From Podarcis pityusensis (Eukaryota), in the NCBI GenBank assembly GCA_964106645.2, contig OZ067050.1: a DNA stretch of 64,000 nucleotides. The stretch is one strand, 5' to 3'. The notes beneath the pieces were generated by a model. That model saw only the letters and a program-made list of their open reading frames with translations, searched no databases and was not told the origin of the DNA. How positions within the stretch are numbered: position 1 is the stretch's first letter; each line of letters starts with the position of its first letter. Below, in pieces: positions 32,352 through 44,085 of this stretch. The position numbers and the translations under genes are program-made.

Positions 32352-35300
32352 TGCCGTTACTCGCTGGTGCAAAAGGTTTTGCAAAACCGGTAAGGGCAAG
32401 ATCGCTGTTGGGGAAGTTTTGTTCTCCTGCAGATACTGGTTGCTAAGAACTGCCCCTTTCACGCCTTGCATTTTCTCCCCTTCCTCTAGTCTCGTGGGGA
32501 TCCAGTGCCCTACGTCTCGCCCTGTTGAAATCCAGAATCTTAATACTGTAATTTTCTTCCCACTCCACCATCCGAGATCCAGCATGTGGCATTTCTGGGG
32601 TGGTCTTTTTTTTTTTTAATTGGACAGACTCTGTGGCGTGTCCAGTCATTCATTTCAAGGCTAATAAGGTGTTGCAGAACTAAAGGCAGCTGCATCTGTT
32701 ATTTAAACCCGTGCAGCGCTGGAAGGACTCTTGTGGGGAGCGCTAGGCTCAAAGTTCTCAGAAATTCGGATTTTGACCGCAACCCAAACTTGCCTTTACT
32801 CAGATGTGTGATCGAATTTGTTGTGGCAAGGAAAATTACCCAGTCTGGCACTGAAGTGGAAGTGAAGTTGGTGGGCATGCAGATTGCGCTGTCGTAGAAT
32901 TATAGAACTGGAAGGGACCACCAGGGTCATCTAGTCCAACCCCCTGCAATGCAGGAATCTTTGGTAGAAAATAGATTTAGTTAGGTCTCTTAAAATACAT
33001 ACTCTATCATTTGTCATTCTTGTGAAATGTATTATAGGCCATTGGAATGTTTGTTGAATATGGTAACAATCTGGAGAAAATCTTCCCATAATGGGTTTCC
33101 TACCTGAGGCACCCAAAATGCAGACTGTCTCTAAAAAATATGAATGGGAGGCAGTCCTAAGTTCTTTGTGCCTCTGATACCATAACAGCAAAAATAACGT
33201 TCCTTACCACTTTGTCCCTTGCTATTAATTACCATATTTTTCGCCCTATAGGACGCACCGGCCCATAGGACGCACCTAGTTTTTTGGGGGGGAAATCAAG
33301 GGAAAAAAATTTATTCCCCCCCCCCCCTCAGGTTTGCACAGCCATCCCCAAGCTAGAAAAGGGAGACGGAGCGCTCCGTCTCCCTCTTCTGCCTTCAGGG
33401 ACAGCCTCTCTAGCCTCTGTGGGGCAGCGGCTTGCCCCGCTGTCCCCCGAGTTTGTGGGGCTGGCGGGGGGAGAAGCAAGCTTGCTTCTCCCCCCCCCCC
33501 CGCCAGCCTCCAGATCAGGTCAGGGAATAGCGGGGTGGGGCGCTCCGCCTCCCCGCTATCCCCCGAGCTTGTGGGGCTGGCGGGGGGGAGAAGCAAGCTT
33601 GCTTCTCCCCCCGCCAGCCTCCAGATCAGGTCGGGGAATAGCGGGGTGGCGTGCTCCGCCTCCCCGCTATCCCCCGAGCTTGTGGGCTGCAGGGTGCTGC
33701 CCACAAGCCTTGCGAGCCCGCGGGACCTCCCGCCGGGCTTGCAAGACTTGCGGATAGCTTCCTGAAGCCTGGAGAGTGAGAGGGGTCGGTGCGCACCGAC
33801 CCCTCTCGCTCTCCAGGCTTCAGCGAAAGCCTGCATTCGCCCCATAGGACGCACAAACATTTCCCCTTCATTTTTGGAGGGGAAAAAGTGCATCCTATAG
33901 GGCGAAAAATACGGTATATACTCAGAATTTACATTTACTGTATTTTTCCATGTATAAGACGAGCTTTTTTGACCCAAAAATGAGGTTCAGAATTTAGGGT
34001 CGTCTTATACACAGGTGGGGGTGGGGTGGGGTGGGGACGACGGGTCAATCGCCACTTAAAATCTCGGGCTCGTGCTTCATCCCAGCGGATGAGTGATTTT
34101 CAGCATTGGCCACTTGATTGTTGCGGGGGGGGGGGGGAATGCCGAAAATTGCTCACCCGCCGGAATGCAGCACACAACCGCTCGCGTTTCAGAAACCACC
34201 TATCAGCTGCCTGATTGCCGCCAGCGGCCACCAATCACACTCCCGCTTGCTGCGACAAGGGCAGCTGTCTGTTGGCTGCTGCAGCGACAATCGGGAGGGC
34301 TAATGGCAGCGATTGGGCAGCTGATAGGTGGTTTCTGAAACGCTAGCAGTTGTGTGCTGCATTCTGGCTGGTGAGCGATTTTCAGCATTCCTCCCCAAAT
34401 AACCCCCCAAAAAGCTCAGTCCTCCCCTGTTTTCTAATATAAGGTAAAGGGACCCCTGGCTATTAGGTCCAGTCGTGACCGACTCTGGGGTTGCGGCGCT
34501 CATCTCGCTTTATTGGCCGAGGGAGCCAGCTTCCAGCTTCCGGGTCATGTGGCCAGCATGACTAAGCCGCTTCTGGCGAACCAGAGCAGCGCACGGAAAC
34601 ACCATTTACCTTCCCACCTATTTATCTACTTGCACTTTGACGTGCTTTCGAACTGCTAGGTTGACAGGAGCAGGGACCAAGCAACGGGAGCTCACCCTGT
34701 CGCCGGGATTCGAACCTCCGTCTTTCTGATCGGCAAGTCCTAGGCTCTGTGGTTTTAACCCGCAGCGCCACCTGCTTCCCTCATTTTCTAATATAGGGGT
34801 CATCTTATACATGGGGGCGTCTTATAGACAGAAAAATATGGTACTTCCCTAGTACCATTAGGAATAGGCCATACTGTTGTCCCTCCAGGCCATTAACATT
34901 TGGTAAACCCCCCACTCAAGCTGTGTTAAGAATTCCTGTGTGCATACACATTCAAAATTGCGCTTTCGAACCTGTTTCAGCTCGTCTCTGACGCTGAGTT
35001 ACCAGAGCTGCATGCAATACTTTACCTATAGGCACACTATAAATATGTAGAACAGCATTCGGATGCTTCTTTGTGCCTTTAATTTTTCCACCTTCTGCTG
35101 TAATCTGTAATTTAGCTGGCTTGCATGAGTCACAAAGCTTTCTACTCTGTAAGTGTCTGTTAATGTCGCTGCATGTTTCTGGAGCACTAGTTTGGAATGT
35201 GTGGATTAGTATGTGGAGTGGCAACACCTGAGTGGGTGGCTATTTCATCCTTTGGAACACTAGGATTCTATGCTTCCCCTTAGCTCAGTTTTTTATGGTT

Positions 35301-39000: not shown

Positions 39001-41678
39001 ATGCAGATTTCCATCTGGATATTGAGGCAGTGATTCACAACTCTTGTTGATTTAGCAAGCATGGAAGCATCCCGATGGAATTTTATTACCAATTAAAACA
39101 GACTTCACAGGCTGGTAAATAGAGAGGCAAATGCAGCCTAATGCTCATCTCTGTACTATAGCTTCCTAAAAGATTACATCACATGCTGACTGTTGTAATA
39201 TTATTAAATAGTTTGAAGCATCAAAGTGAATACAAAAGGCAGTTGTGGTGCAGTCCCTATTCAAAAGGCTTATCTTTGGTGATCGCTCGTAGCCGAGTAA
39301 AATTGTCTTCCATGAACACGGTTTTAACACTGAGTGTGTAAGTGACTGTGGAGGCCAATTCTGGATCCACACATCCTTCCACAGTGGGGACATAGGTTTC
39401 CGGGTGGGACTTGATCACGGTGAGGATTTGCCAAGCGTGCCTTAGCACATTTCTCCCTTTTGTCCTGAGTTCAAGCACCTTCAAAGTCCATGACACCTTT
39501 GGTAAAGGCTGTTCTCCAGTTGGAGTGCTCGCAGGCCAGTGTTTCCCAGTTGTCTGGGTTTATACTACATTTTTTTTTAGATTTGCCTTGAGAGAGTCTT
39601 TAAACCTCTTCTGTTGACCGCCAGCATTACGCTTTCCATTTTTAAGTTCGGAATAGAGTATATCAACTTATTCAGCTAATAAGATAGGAGTTGGGGAAAA
39701 CAAGTGGGGGATGCCAGCAACAACAAGTGTGGATGGCAGAGGGGTGAGTCAGGCAGCAATGAAGGAAAGGCTCTTAATAACAGAGAGGAAACCAGTGAAC
39801 ATCGAGCTACAGGGAGAGGCCATAGAATGGTCTGAAGACAGACGATGCAGATTCCTTACCAAAGCTAAGGGAATCTGACCCTGGAAATAGCCTGGATGTG
39901 AGACCACTTGGGAAACATGCAAAGTTCTTTGGAAAGAAGAGGTGGGTAAAAACTGAGACTCGGGTGCATGAACTTGAATTCCCCGTGCTAACCCAGCTTT
40001 GTCTGCCTGGGTACCAAGACTCAGCACACCATTATTCCAGGTTAGTCCATTAATTTCAGTGCACCTCCTTTGAGTAGGACGTTGTTGGATACAACCCTAT
40101 GTCTCCTTTAAAAAATGATTGTCCTTTAAAAAAAATTATTCAATCTACGACCAGTACTATAATGTTTTGATTTGGCAACCCTCTTCCAAATCACTTTTTT
40201 TTTAGTTTTTTATTTATACTTTTCAAATTTATACATTTGATTAGATTTACAATCAATTGAACATTTCAAAATTTGAGTTCCTTCTCCCGCTTTCTGTGGT
40301 TCCTTAAATTTGTTTTTTAATACCTTCTGCATATCCAAGTTCATTTAACTTGCTCATTTAATTATCTACTGTAAATATATACACTTATAAAACTGCAAGT
40401 TATTACAATAATCCTGCTATTGTTTTTATCTGTTTACAATTTATCTGTAAATATTCAATAAACCATTTCCATTCTTTTACAAAAAGTTTGTTATTTTGAT
40501 TTCTTATTCTTCCGGTAAGTTTCTCCATTTCTGCATATCCCATAAGTTTTTGTATCCATCCTTCCTTTACTGGGACTTCTGCTTCTTTCCACTTTTGGAC
40601 AAGTAACATTCTTGCTGCTGTAGAAGCATAGGTAAATAAATTTCTATACAATTTAGGTAGTTCTGTCCCCATAATTCCCAAAAGAAAAGCTTCTGGGGTT
40701 TTTTAAAATAAAAGTTATTTTGAACATCCTTTTCAATTCATTATATATCATTTCCCAGTAATCTTTAACCTTACTACAAGACCACCACATATGATGAAAA
40801 GACCCTCTTTCTCTTTACATTTCCAACATTTGTTTGATTTAGATTTATACATTTTTGCCCGTTTACTTGGTGTTAGATACAAACAATATATCATTTTCAT
40901 ATACCGTACTTTTCCGTCTATATTTTGGGGGGCTCAAATTTAAGAAAATGGGGGGAGATGGCAGAGTTGTTGAGCTTTTTTTAGGGGAAATTGCTGAAAA
41001 TCATTCACCTGCCGGCATTACAAAATCCGACTCTCTTCTGTCCCCTCACTGGCAGAAGCTGACAATCGCCCGCCCTATTGCTGCAGCATCAAGCCAATCA
41101 CCACCACCCATTGACGCAGCAACCAATAACACTCACAATAGCTGCTGATGGCCACGGCAGCAACCAATCAAACATCCACCCCATGGCACTATCCATGTAT
41201 AAGACCACCCCCTTTTTCTATCATGATTTTCACAAAAAAATACCGAGTCCTATGCATGGAAAAGTACGGTAATTTTCCCTTAAACTATAACATGCTGTAA
41301 ATTTTATATCCATGTTCCACAATCATTCCCAAGCTTCCATATCTATATTATGACTGGTATCTGTCATCACTTTTTTTACTTTTAGTACTTCTGGATGTTC
41401 CTGATGGTGCCTATTTTCTCATCCTTCCAGGAGCTTGTGTTGACAACACCATCCTAAGCAAACAAGGTTTCACAAACTATGCCAAACTGCCGTCCATGGT
41501 GACTGCCCAAGGGGAGGTCGTGGGTGCCCTCTCTCTCATGACATCCCAGACTAGCACACTTCTACAACGCGGCCCTGTTCACTTGACTTCCTTGCTGGAC
41601 CAGTATGTCAAACAGCAGAACTGTGAATCAGTTGAAGCAAAGGAGACAGGGACTCTGGACAAGTCGGAAGCCCTTTGA
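32347..41678 (+). CDS. MRPL10: Mitochondrial ribosomal protein L10 (uL10m), 5 exons, 256 aa
   Basis: Exons 32347-32389, 35411-35580, 37299-37463, 38769-38913, 41431-41678; GT-AG, phases consistent, 771 nt. Motifs [72 protein letters not shown]. Basic N-terminal presequence-like segment. Confidence 0.95.
33232..33914. mobile_element. Tc2/mariner-like MITE with tandem GC-rich hairpin units
   Basis: TA-CCATATTTTTCGCCCTATAGGACGCAC ... GTGCATCCTATAGGGCGAAAAATACGG-TA. Confidence 0.88.
33938..34841. mobile_element. Tc2/mariner-like MITE (second subfamily) containing an inverted repeat and a Sauria SINE
   Basis: TA-CTGTATTTTTCCATGTATAAGACG ... CGTCTTATAGACAGAAAAATATGG-TA. Confidence 0.8.
34442..34783 (-). 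mobile_element. Sauria SINE nested in a Tc2-like MITE
   Basis: Reverse-complement match; TSD TTTTCTAATATA at 34430-34441 and 34784-34795. Confidence 0.9.
36713..36862 (+). mobile_element. tRNA-Ile-derived SINE with the same CR1-type tail
   Basis: tagctcagttggtt(a)agagtgtggtgctGATagcgccaaggttgcaggttcgatcccc (anticodon position GAT at 36750-36752) followed by cctgcattgcagggggttggactagatg..cccttccaactct. Confidence 0.85.
37719..38017 (-). mobile_element. BovB 3' fragment with 8-bp TSD
   Basis: BovB C-terminus and (CAA)n tail; TSD ATTTCATT at 37711-37718 and 38018-38025. Confidence 0.92.
38925..39222 (+). repeat. Diverged copy of the distal MRPL10 3'UTR inside MRPL10 intron 4
   Basis: Co-linear match to 41760-42069, with shared blocks such as ctggaatgcagatttccatctggatattgaggcagt, gttgatttagcaagcatg, aattaaaacagacttc and ctgttgtaatattattaaata. 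Confidence 0.93.
39250..39660 (-). mobile_element. RTE-clade (non-BovB) LINE 3' fragment
   Basis: Minus-strand translation [28 protein letters not shown]...WETLA...[18 protein letters not shown], typical of an RTE ORF C-terminus. Confidence 0.8.
40195..41390 (-). mobile_element. Degraded L1-clade LINE 3' region, interrupted by a Tc2-like MITE
   Basis: Frameshifted remnants resembling [15 protein letters not shown] and [31 protein letters not shown]; A-rich tail. Confidence 0.75.
40904..41269. mobile_element. Tc2/mariner-like MITE inserted in an L1 remnant
   Basis: TA-CCGTACTTTTCC ... GGAAAAGTACGG-TA. Confidence 0.8.
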
Positions 41679-42049
41679 TGAACTTTCTTCCCATTTCTGC
41701 TCATTGCTTCAGGCACAACTTGTATTCTGTTTGTTGCATGTTTGTATCCTGGGTGGGGCAAAGTTGGATGGCTAAATTCTGTATATCAAGTGGATTTGGA
41801 AATGAGGATCAGATCATGAACGAGGTATATGCTGGAATGCAGATTTCCATCTGGATATTGAGGCAGTACTGGATTCACAACTCTCGTTGATTTAGCAAGC
41901 ATGAAAGCATCCCGATGGAAGTTTATTATCAATTAAAACAGACTTCGCAGGCTGATAAATAGAGAGGCAAAATGTTAAATGCGGCCTAATGTTCATCTCT
42001 TGTACAGCTTCCTAAAAAAATTATGTCACATGCTCACTGTTGTAATATT

Positions 42050-42100
42050 ATTAAATATTTTTAAGCATCCTGCTGTGTGTGTCTTACTGTGTTGGGATGA
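42050..42100 (+). terminator. MRPL10 polyadenylation site
   Basis: TGTA upstream, ATTAAA at 42050-42055, GT-rich downstream element (tgctgtgtgtgtcttactgtgttggg) after 42070. Confidence 0.6.
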
Positions 42101-42123
42101 AGGTAAGCAGTGCACTGAATATA

Positions 42124-43140
42124 CCGTATTTTTCGCTCTATAGGACGCACTTTTTTCCCTTCAAAAATGAAGGGAAAATGTGTGTTCGTCCTATGGAGCG
42201 AAGACGCCATAGCCCCGCGACCCTCTCCCGGCTGGAGAGGTGACGGGCGGCTATGGCAAGAGCCTCAATAGCCGCCCGTCACCTCTCCAGCCGGGAGATG
42301 GTCGTGGGGGGCTGCTTTAGCCCCGCGCGCGCTCTCCCGGCTGGAGAGGTGACGGGCGGCTATGGCAAGAGCCTCAATAGCCGCCCGTCACCTCTCCAGC
42401 CGGGAGAGGGTCGCGGGGGGCTGCTTTAGCCCTGCGCGCGCTCTCCCGGCTGGAGAGGTGACGGGCGGCTATGGCAGGAGCTTCTATAGCCGCCCGTCAC
42501 CTCTCCAGCCGGGAGAGCGCGCGCGGGCACCCCGCGACCCTCTCCCGGCTGGAGAGGTGACGGGCGGCTATTGAGGCTCTTGCCATAGCCGCCCGTCACC
42601 TCTCCAGCCGGGAGAGCGCGCGCGGGGCTGCTGGAGAGGTGACCGGCGGCTATAGAAGCTCCTGCCATAGCCGCCCGTCACCTCTCCAGCCGGGAGAGGG
42701 TCGCAGGGGGCTGCTTTAGCCCCGCGCGCGCTCTCCCGGCTGGAGAGGTGACGGGCGGCTATGGCAGGAGCCTCTCTGCTGCGCCTTTCCGCTGCTCCCT
42801 GACCTGCTCTTTGGGGCTGGTGGTGGGCTTCCCCCCGCCAGCCCCAAAGAGCAGGTCGAAATGAACCTGAAGCCTGGAGAGCGAGAGGGGTCAGTGCACA
42901 CCGCCCCCTCTCGCTCTCCAGGCTTCCAAGGTAGCCGCCTGAACGCACCTTAAACGGCACCTTGTTTTAGAGCGGGAAAACAAGAGGGGGAAAGTTCTCC
43001 CCCTCTCTGCGCAGCGCCTCCTGCCACTTCGCTGAAGGGGCGCTGGGCAGAGAGGGGGAGAAATTTTTTTCCTTGTTCTCCCCCCTCTAAAACAAAGTGC
43101 GTCCTATTGTCCGGTGCGTCCTATGGTGCGAAAAATACGG
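42124..43140. mobile_element. Tc2/mariner-like MITE with a long hairpin array
   Basis: TA-CCGTATTTTTCGCTCTATAGGACGCAC ... GTGCGTCCTATGGTGCGAAAAATACGG-TA. Confidence 0.9.
42212..42772. repeat. Array of five hairpins plus one half-unit (32-bp arms, 13-nt loops, ~109-bp period)
   Basis: Arm ctctcccggctggagaggtgacgggcggctat alternates with its exact reverse complement; the fifth unit has a shortened left arm. Confidence 0.95.
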
Positions 43141-44085
43141 TACTCTGTGAAACCAAATAGGAGTTCTGTGAACTCAATGCATGCACATTTTATTAATAGG
43201 GTGTAACTCTAGTAAGTTGCTTTTGAGGCACTCCAGAGCGGATGAAAATGTCCACTTGCTCTTCCAGCAAGAATACCCCTTAATGTTTAATATAAATGTT
43301 TGCTTACATGATGTACTTGTTCTGTTGTTTTGGGAGGGGGAATGGGTGATAATGAAATGTTATTTATGTAATGTATTGTGTAATACTGGCCTTTCCGGGA
43401 TAGAATCCAGGGCAGTTTACAAAAACTGAAACAGCAAAAACAAGATAAAAAAATGAAATATGACTAAATAGATAGCAGACACATGATATAACAATATTTT
43501 AAAGTGCTAGAAGGGGGAAAAAATGGATTTTTGCCTGGCTGGCACCAGTATCCAGCAAGCCTCCCACAACTGGATCCTATCTCTAGAACAGTGATGGCTA
43601 ACCTGTGTCCTGAAGGCAGTATTTCACCTCCAGTGTGTGTTTTGTGGACTCTCACGAGCCCCACAAAATTTGCCTTTAAAAAAACCACAAAAATTTTTTT
43701 TAAAAATACTGACCGCTCCCATAGGATATGATACAGTGGTACCTCGGGTTATATACGCTTCAGGTTACAGACTCTGCTAACCCAAAAATAGTACCTCAGG
43801 TTAAGAACTTTGCTTCAGGATGAGAACAGAAATTGTTCTCCGGTGGCGCGGCAGCAGCAGGAGGCCCCATTAGCTAAAGTGGTGCTTCAGGTTAAGAACA
43901 GTTTCAGGTTAAGAACAGACCTCCGGAATGAATTAAGTACTTAACCTGAGGTACCACTGTACTATGATATGATACTGTGATGCCAAAAGGTTTTTGTAGC
44001 CTCCAAACGTATTCCCTTAAAAGAAAAAATATTTTTTGCTTATTTCTCCCACTGTGATGCCAAACGTTTTTGGTGCCCTCCCCAA

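What the first reader, a model, noticed from the sequence alone, without database searches (positions are those of the whole stretch)
42212..42772. Flip-flop hairpin array: identical 32-bp arms with 13-nt loops in both orientations
Seen: five hairpins and a half unit inside a Tc2-like MITE. The loops are GGCAAGAGCCTCA (42255, 42364), GGCAGGAGCTTCT (42473), TGAGGCTCTTGCC (42572; exact reverse complement of loop 1) and AGAAGCTCCTGCC (42654; exact reverse complement of loop 3). The outer arm extensions (ccccgcgacc versus ccccgcgcgcg) are also shuffled between units. The arms are almost mutation-free despite a high CpG content. Inference: repeated template switching or inversion between arms, with recent amplification or ongoing homogenisation. 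This is reminiscent of flip/flop isomers of viral hairpin termini, but here inside a non-autonomous transposon. The element begins ~55 bp after the MRPL10 poly(A) site, so read-through RNA would form long dsRNA stems.
Basis: partly seen in the sequence, partly recalled or inferred. Interest (0 to 1): 0.7.

Follow-up and report, generated by a model that had tools for sequence, protein, structure and literature searches.

The report
Self-shuffling hairpin array in young transposon
This is one copy of a very young, gene-less jumping element whose interior is a chain of DNA hairpins arranged differently in almost every copy; the back-to-front loops seen here recur in its sister copies and were likely inherited, and the shuffling likely comes from DNA copying slips rather than from a dedicated flipping system or a regulatory role.

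Summary
The array sits in a 1017-bp, TA-flanked MITE whose ends match intact DD35D Passer (pogo) transposons in the same genome. I parsed 132 complete copies. The window copy belongs to a young subfamily: 47 copies, 0.24% diverged, with 45 different arrays of 2-31 hairpins. It equals a longer sister copy minus two direct-repeat deletions, so its flipped loops are inherited, not flipped here. In the young subfamily, direct-repeat jumps outnumber inversions 141 to 2 (136 to 5 if priced equally). Flips are real but rare: older copies keep the intermediates, and one copy holds an inverted duplicate of its own host flank. The arms are clean because the element is young. They mutate as fast as the unique parts, and no paired-arm correction appears in 590 hairpins. 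Read-through dsRNA from MRPL10 is untested. This is a new variant of a known kind (MITEs with internal tandem arrays, such as miDNA4 and Xstir). The scan noted a similar hairpin-array element elsewhere in this genome (e1-9553879); a sequence look-up found no shared words with it.

The parts
41431..41678 (+). Last coding exon of MRPL10 (host gene upstream of the element)
   Evidence: Translation; phmmer against PDB uL10m chains, E 2e-20
42050..42055 (+). Distal ATTAAA, likely poly(A) signal of MRPL10 (a second one lies at 41932)
   Evidence: Sequence; use of the signal is inferred
42122..42123 (.). Left TA target-site duplication
   Evidence: 125 of 132 copies have TA at both ends
42124..42150 (+). 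Left terminal inverted repeat (27 nt), Passer type
   Evidence: I22; 21-24 of 27 identical to autonomous DD35D elements
42151..42212 (+). Left subterminal region shared with autonomous Passer copies and other MITEs of the window
   Evidence: blastn of element positions 1-80 at 78-85% to autonomous copies
42223..42299 (+). Hairpin 1, loop P forward (42255-42267)
42332..42408 (+). Hairpin 2, loop P forward (42364-42376)
42441..42517 (+). Hairpin 3, loop Q forward (42473-42485)
42540..42616 (+). Hairpin 4, loop P reversed (42572-42584); first inferred deletion (about 398 nt against sister copy L002) maps near 42581
42630..42698 (+). Hairpin 5, loop Q reversed (42654-42666), left arm cut to 24 nt; second inferred deletion (about 191 nt) maps near 42693
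42731..42775 (+). Half unit: arm plus the ancestral loop sequence R, running into the tail
42776..43113 (+). Constant tail with three more hairpins (42801-42857, 42869-42926, 42957-43100); the 42869 hairpin also occurs in autonomous copy L205 and in the MITE at 33230
   Evidence: (I11, I24, I25)
43114..43140 (-). Right terminal inverted repeat
   Evidence: I22; 40 of 44 terminal nt identical to the L197 group of autonomous elements
43141..43142 (.). Right TA target-site duplication

Best explanation
The array is the variable interior of a very young, gene-less MITE whose ends match this genome's Passer (pogo, DD35D) transposons, which likely mobilise it; its units are likely reshuffled by replication or repair template jumps between identical arms, and the flipped loops in this copy were likely inherited from the subfamily's parent element. 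Shown: TA target sites, Passer-type ends, 47 young copies with 45 different arrays, and the window copy equal to sister copy L002 minus two blocks. Inferred steps: (1) a small inverted duplication turned one arm into arm-loop-reversed arm-spacer-arm, so every loop and every spacer lies between inverted arms; (2) rare switches to the opposite strand flipped loops, spacers or blocks, and flipped forms were fixed in successive master elements; (3) one master of about 12 hairpins with both loop orientations burst to about 50 sites; (4) much more frequent jumps between same-direction arms delete and duplicate units, at least partly after insertion. No function for the host is needed.
For: Ends match autonomous elements with 425-aa Brk + HTH_Tnp_Tc5 + DDE_1 proteins and 35-residue D-D spacing; some copies have ORFs 99.9-100% identical. 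The 47 young copies share two diagnostic substitutions found in none of 77 older copies and differ by 50 of 21168 sites, 0.24%. 44 of 47 carry loops in both orientations, in fixed contexts such as Q-d-p and e-q. Window copy: 2 direct jumps, mismatch cost 3, no strand switch against L002. The 46 arrays need 141 direct jumps and 2 inversions. Age series from unique parts: 52 copies at 2.3% with 0-4 hairpins, 25 at 0.85% with 1-6, 47 at 0.21% with 2-31 (medians). Intermediates L051, L113, L181 and L187 carry part of the flipped blocks. Change after insertion: 10 of 49 private substitutions in duplicated blocks are shared by the duplicates, and L187 holds an inverted copy of its tail plus about 100 bp of host flank, 464 nt without a mismatch. 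Loop inversion by template switching is documented (PMC8794818, passages).
Against: The direct-to-inverted ratio depends on the scoring: 3-7 copies show strand switches at equal price and up to 16 of 46 when inversions are made cheaper. Jumps were counted against one real copy, so events shared by sub-lineages are counted more than once. Replication slippage cannot be told from transposase-triggered gap repair. The tree is poorly resolved among older copies and three young copies fall beside the main clade, so the order of events rests on parsimony. One arm variant did spread to both orientations on the way to the young master, so inverted copying was not negligible there. L187 could be a fold-back assembly error. 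No raw reads or second haplotype were seen.
Confidence: 0.75

Rival explanations
1. Transposase-driven scrambling: the jumps happen mainly when Passer transposase excises a copy and the gap is refilled from the sister chromatid, so the array is reshuffled by the element's own cycle rather than by ordinary replication.
For: Copies with no substitution in 451 unique bp still need up to 6 jumps (L061 6; L025 and L076 5). Autonomous copies with identical or near-identical ORFs differ in their own 91-114-bp arrays (4.7 vs 6.7; 3.2, 4.7, 4.3 units). Gap filling with template switching is described for TIR elements (PMC8277862, passages).
Against: Substitution counts of 0-3 per copy fit a single burst, so there is no power to show independence from age. 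Private substitutions shared by duplicates (10 of 49) fit both models. PMC8277862 found most single-copy captures independent of transposition.
Confidence: 0.3
2. Active flip/flop: loops invert repeatedly at each locus by a hairpin-transfer or site-specific mechanism like that of viral hairpin ends, with continuous arm homogenisation.
For: Both orientations of both loops occur (P 174, p 85, Q 145, q 169 in young copies). Single flips exist (L120, L153, L180).
Against: Orientation follows context: d is followed by p or h in 82 of 87 cases, and e or f by q in 167 of 173. Spacer S is forward 327 times and reversed once. Mismatched arm variants persist in 39 and 31 of 47 copies. Paired corrections are 0 of 590. 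The hairpins are internal, not genome ends.
Confidence: 0.05
3. The insertion is kept because MRPL10 read-through makes long dsRNA (small RNAs, editing, control of the gene).
For: The element starts about 70 bp after the distal ATTAAA and folds into long stems (folded as DNA).
Against: The copy is very young and shorter than most (5th shortest of 47). The site looks empty in two related organisms: contigs of 900 and 895 nt run about 610 nt past 42124 without matching the element. None of the 150 listed Rfam matches reaches its gathering score.
Confidence: 0.04
4. The array or its variation is an assembly artefact of palindromic DNA.
For: Palindromes can trouble sequencing (general knowledge); no raw reads were seen.
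Against: The same unit order and unit-specific variants recur at dozens of unlinked loci. Substitutions are enriched 5-6-fold at CpG, as expected of germline decay. Sub-lineages share both array junctions and unique-part variants (L069 and L175).
Confidence: 0.03

Closest known systems
miDNA4 of Xenopus tropicalis and Xstir/Xmix of Xenopus (MITEs with internal tandem arrays); seen through reviews PMC12628747 and PMC9659126 (passages), primary papers not read
   Same: Short non-autonomous TIR element (miDNA4 is a Tc1/mariner MITE) whose interior holds one to many copies of a repeat unit, with copy number changing through repeat-guided deletion and gain.
   Different: Here each unit is a perfect hairpin, so loops and spacers also invert, and arrays are mosaics of both orientations. 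No sign of escape into a free satellite: 1118 of 1335 exact arms lie in the 132 parsed copies.
Passer family of pogo transposons (PMC7386202, PMC9976928; passages)
   Same: TA target site, TIRs under 30 bp, partner transposase of 425 aa with Brk and HTH domains and DD35D.
   Different: This element has no transposase sequence. The passages read did not mention internal tandem or hairpin arrays.
Template-switch mutations in hairpins (PMC8794818, passages) and ODIRA inverted triplications (PMC10766186, abstract and introduction)
   Same: Loop inversion between existing arms; direct-inverted-direct arrangement with junctions at close inverted repeats, as in the oldest one-hairpin copies and in L187.
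   Different: Those cases concern single hairpins or large copy-number variants. Here many arms in one mobile array allow repeated events, and stem repair was not detected.
Foldback elements of Drosophila (FB4, Tetris, Galileo); FB4 from passages of PMC2955051 and PMC8277862, the others from search listings only
   Same: Modular, repeat-rich DNA transposons in which most copies differ by internal duplications.
   Different: Their repeats make up long terminal inverted repeats. Here the TIRs are 27 bp and the array is internal and self-complementary unit by unit.
Flip/flop isomers of parvovirus and poxvirus hairpin ends (recalled, no call)
   Same: A loop occurs as itself and as its reverse complement between identical arms.
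   Different: Not terminal, no element-encoded nicking or resolving protein, flips rare and inherited rather than remade at each replication.

Membership tests
MITE derived from Passer (pogo) | TA target-site duplication | tested here: met
   Window copy TA..TA; 125 of 132 copies
MITE derived from Passer (pogo) | Short TIRs (<30 bp) shared with an autonomous element of the same genome | tested here: met
   21-24 of 27 left and up to 40 of 44 right terminal nt identical; first 80 and last 82 nt at 78-85%
MITE derived from Passer (pogo) | No transposase sequence, many copies | tested here: met
   blastn against 14 autonomous loci hits only the ends and short hairpin pieces; 212 exact left-junction matches; 7269 matches to the TIR pattern
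Passer transposase (partner) | DD35D triad, Brk and HTH DNA-binding motifs, 400-500 aa | tested here: met
   35-residue spacing in 11 of 14 ORFs, 8 of them with the first D matched too; 3 not matched by the pattern. BrkDBD in 2 of 3 proteins scanned, the third having been cut shorter at its start; HTH_Tnp_Tc5 and DDE_1 in 3 of 3
Passer transposase (partner) | Mobilises this MITE | not testable with these tools
   Inferred from shared ends and near-identical intact ORFs
MITE with internal tandem array (miDNA4/Xstir kind) | Variable number of internal units between constant ends | tested here: met
   0-31 hairpins between constant 109-nt left and about 380-nt right parts
MITE with internal tandem array (miDNA4/Xstir kind) | Units also amplified as free satellite without TIRs | tested here: inconclusive
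   1118 of 1335 exact arms lie inside the parsed copies; the other 217 were not fetched, and no large satellite is possible in the assembly
Foldback elements | Long modular terminal inverted repeats | tested here: not met
   TIR 27 bp; array internal
Viral flip/flop hairpin termini | Hairpin at the end of the replicating unit, two isomers remade constantly | tested here: not met
   Internal array; orientation fixed by context; 2 inversions against 141 direct jumps
ODIRA-type inverted triplication | Inverted middle copy between direct copies, junctions at close inverted repeats | tested here: inconclusive
   The oldest one-hairpin copies read arm, reversed arm, arm (L099) and L187 has a 1015-nt palindrome centred on a spacer. 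Origin dependence and the hairpin-capped intermediate cannot be tested.
Known structured RNA family (Rfam) | Score at or above the gathering threshold | tested here: not met
   The 150 listed of 188 matches are all below threshold; the 38 unlisted score lower

The most novel reading that the evidence does not exclude
Passer elements in this genome carry self-scrambling interiors as a by-product of their own cut-and-paste cycle. Each lineage, autonomous or not, has its own GC-rich 90-115-bp array near the left end, and repair of excision gaps reshuffles it about three times per copy. In this subfamily the units are palindromes, so the arrays record, copy by copy, the ratio of same-strand to opposite-strand template switches in a vertebrate germline (roughly 20-70 to 1), and they can seed inverted duplications of host DNA.
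Probability: 0.2. Interest if true: 0.55.

Novelty: new variant of a known kind. Interest (0 to 1): 0.33.

Why it matters
For the host gene it probably does not matter. As a natural data set it is useful: 47 near-identical, dated-together copies of a palindromic array with marked units allow direct-repeat jumps, inversions and stem repair to be counted side by side in a vertebrate genome. Older copies preserve how the array grew from one arm to 31 hairpins. It also shows that clean arms and mirror-image loops need no special flipping machinery.

Tried and rejected
Partner search: PF03184 in the genome returned mostly a 575-aa family whose right end, read in one copy, is CAGT-type and unlike the MITE's TIR; rejected. 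PF09607 gave 2 weak hits that I did not examine. PF03221 revealed the true partner. Arm homogenisation: rejected; in older copies 5 paired changes were seen against 4.4 expected after setting aside the ancestral arm variant. Sequencing runs: no RNA holder listed on record. One contig of a run guessed to be RNA, from another organism, covers 41419-42036; contigs cannot show an end, so this was not used as evidence. I first read L116 as two left ends; one search shows a left end, a hairpin and a short inverted copy of the left end joined to the distal tail. Two first translations were in the wrong frame. Rfam gave only sub-threshold hairpin matches. Literature searches listed no description of this family or of a loop-flipping hairpin array in a MITE; one search returned mostly papers on parasitic mites. 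The library lacks most subscription papers, and supplements of the Passer papers were not read and may list this element.

Full report
Observation. Nine of eleven arms are exact 32-mers, one differs at its last base, and one is cut to 24 nt. The array lies inside a 1017-bp element (42124-43140) with TA on both sides and 27-bp inverted ends. Two more elements with the same kind of ends but different interiors lie in the window. The exon upstream is MRPL10.

Family. The left junction has 212 exact matches in the genome and the right junction 65. I fetched part of the 100 listed left-junction places, the right-junction places not already held, and the best hits. From these, 132 complete copies were parsed into arms, loops and spacers; copies lacking a recognisable end were dropped. 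They hold 1118 of the 1335 exact arm cores in the genome. Lengths run from 241 to 3615 bp around constant ends. The sample is enriched for copies like the window's.

Three layers appear when copies are grouped by array type and divergence is measured on the non-array parts (124 of 132 copies had both parts). Fifty-two copies at 2.3% have 0-4 hairpins, nearly all with loop R forward; a few have it reversed. Twenty-five at 0.85% have 1-6 hairpins and derived loops, many reversed. Forty-seven at 0.21% have 2-31 hairpins, median 12. The young group shares two substitutions absent from all 77 others. L051, L113, L181 and L187 carry pieces of the flipped blocks on older tails and look like intermediates.

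The window copy. It reads P S P S Q d p e q S, and 15 of 47 young copies start with the same P S P S Q d p. A jump-aware alignment to the real 1610-bp copy L002 explains it with two direct deletions (about 398 and 191 nt), a mismatch cost of 3 and no strand switch; L074 as reference also needs two jumps. Its reversed loops are therefore inherited.

How the arrays change. Forty-five of 47 young arrays are distinct. Against L002 the other 46 need 141 direct jumps (62 forward, 79 back) and 2 inversions, in L120 and L153. At equal price 3-7 copies show strand switches, and with inversions made cheaper up to 16. The ratio is thus about 20-70 to 1, or 6 to 1 at the extreme. Shared events are counted more than once. 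Ten of 49 private substitutions in duplicated blocks are shared by the duplicates, so some duplications came after a copy had begun to diverge. L187 contains, inside its array, an inverted copy of its tail, right end and about 100 bp of host flank, with 464 nt free of mismatch. If real, this is an opposite-strand switch after insertion; it was the only such case among 132 copies, and an assembly fold-back is not excluded.

Why the arms are clean. Unique parts differ from the subfamily majority at 0.86% of CpG and 0.15% of other sites. Arms differ at 0.85% and 0.27% after setting aside inherited variants at two positions of forward arms, and at 3.4% of CpG sites with them. No hairpin of 590 shows the same change in both arms (1.0 expected), and older copies show 5 against 4.4 once the ancestral arm variant is excluded. 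Against my reading: one arm substitution did spread from reversed to forward arms in the lineage that led to the young master, which needs inverted copying.

Partner. A search for the Tc5 HTH domain found a family with 443-453-aa open frames. Its members have the same ends as the MITE, a 425-aa protein with Brk, HTH and DDE_1 domains and 35 residues between the last two aspartates. These are the marks of Passer given in PMC9976928 (passages) and fit PMC7386202 (passages). Some ORFs are 99.9-100% identical, so activity is recent. The autonomous copies also carry variable 91-114-bp arrays near the left end (10 of 15 in Tandem Repeats Finder), mostly without long hairpins. Variable interiors are thus a trait of the wider family and do not need palindromes.

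Host effect. The element begins about 70 bp after the distal ATTAAA. In two related organisms contigs run about 610 nt past the insertion point without matching the element, which suggests an empty site. No expression data for this species were available, and no listed Rfam match reaches threshold. Read-through dsRNA remains possible and unshown.

Known relatives. MITEs with variable internal arrays are described (miDNA4, Xstir; reviews PMC12628747 and PMC9659126, passages). Loop inversion by template switching is described in PMC8794818 (passages). Inverted triplications are described in PMC10766186 (abstract and introduction). Rearranging foldback repeats appear in PMC2955051 and PMC8277862 (passages). 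Eight searches listed no report of this family or of a mosaic hairpin array in a MITE, within an open-access library. A sequence look-up found no shared words, so it may be a separate lineage; I did not check it further.

Verdict. A real and tidy case of a palindromic minisatellite riding in a young Passer MITE. Flips occur but are rare and mostly inherited, ordinary direct-repeat jumps dominate, and youth explains the clean arms. New variant of a known kind; interest 0.33.

Noticed in passing
L187 (G000:C6:42294204-42297704), 1248-2261: A family copy holds a 1015-nt palindrome made of its own tail, right TIR and about 100 bp of host flank, 464 nt without a mismatch: a recent inverted duplication after insertion, or an assembly fold-back.
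   Followed up: partly
L193-L207, between the left TIR and the ORF: Autonomous Passer copies carry lineage-specific GC-rich tandem arrays of 91-114 bp (some also about 225 bp) whose copy number differs between copies with identical ORFs.
   Followed up: partly
L128 and related loci: A young Tigger-like family (at least 150 DDE_1 hits, many 575-576-aa open frames, CAGT end) also has a tandem array of roughly 125 bp upstream of its ORF, seen by eye.
   Followed up: no
window 33230-33916 and 2159-2649: Two more MITEs with Passer-type ends; the first has a 111-bp tandem unit (33435-33686) and shares the 42869-42926 hairpin with this element.
   Followed up: partly
L085 (G000:C2:77342167-77352000): Two copies of the array family lie back to back about 1.9 kb apart, with related arrays.
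   Followed up: no
L116 (G000:C5, near 40834250): A 337-bp copy in which the hairpin was extended by an inverted copy of about 55 bp of the left end, replacing most of the tail.
   Followed up: partly
window 43735-43960: A short element with CAGTGGTACCTC-type ends and a 17-bp tandem repeat, likely a Tigger-derived MITE.
   Followed up: no
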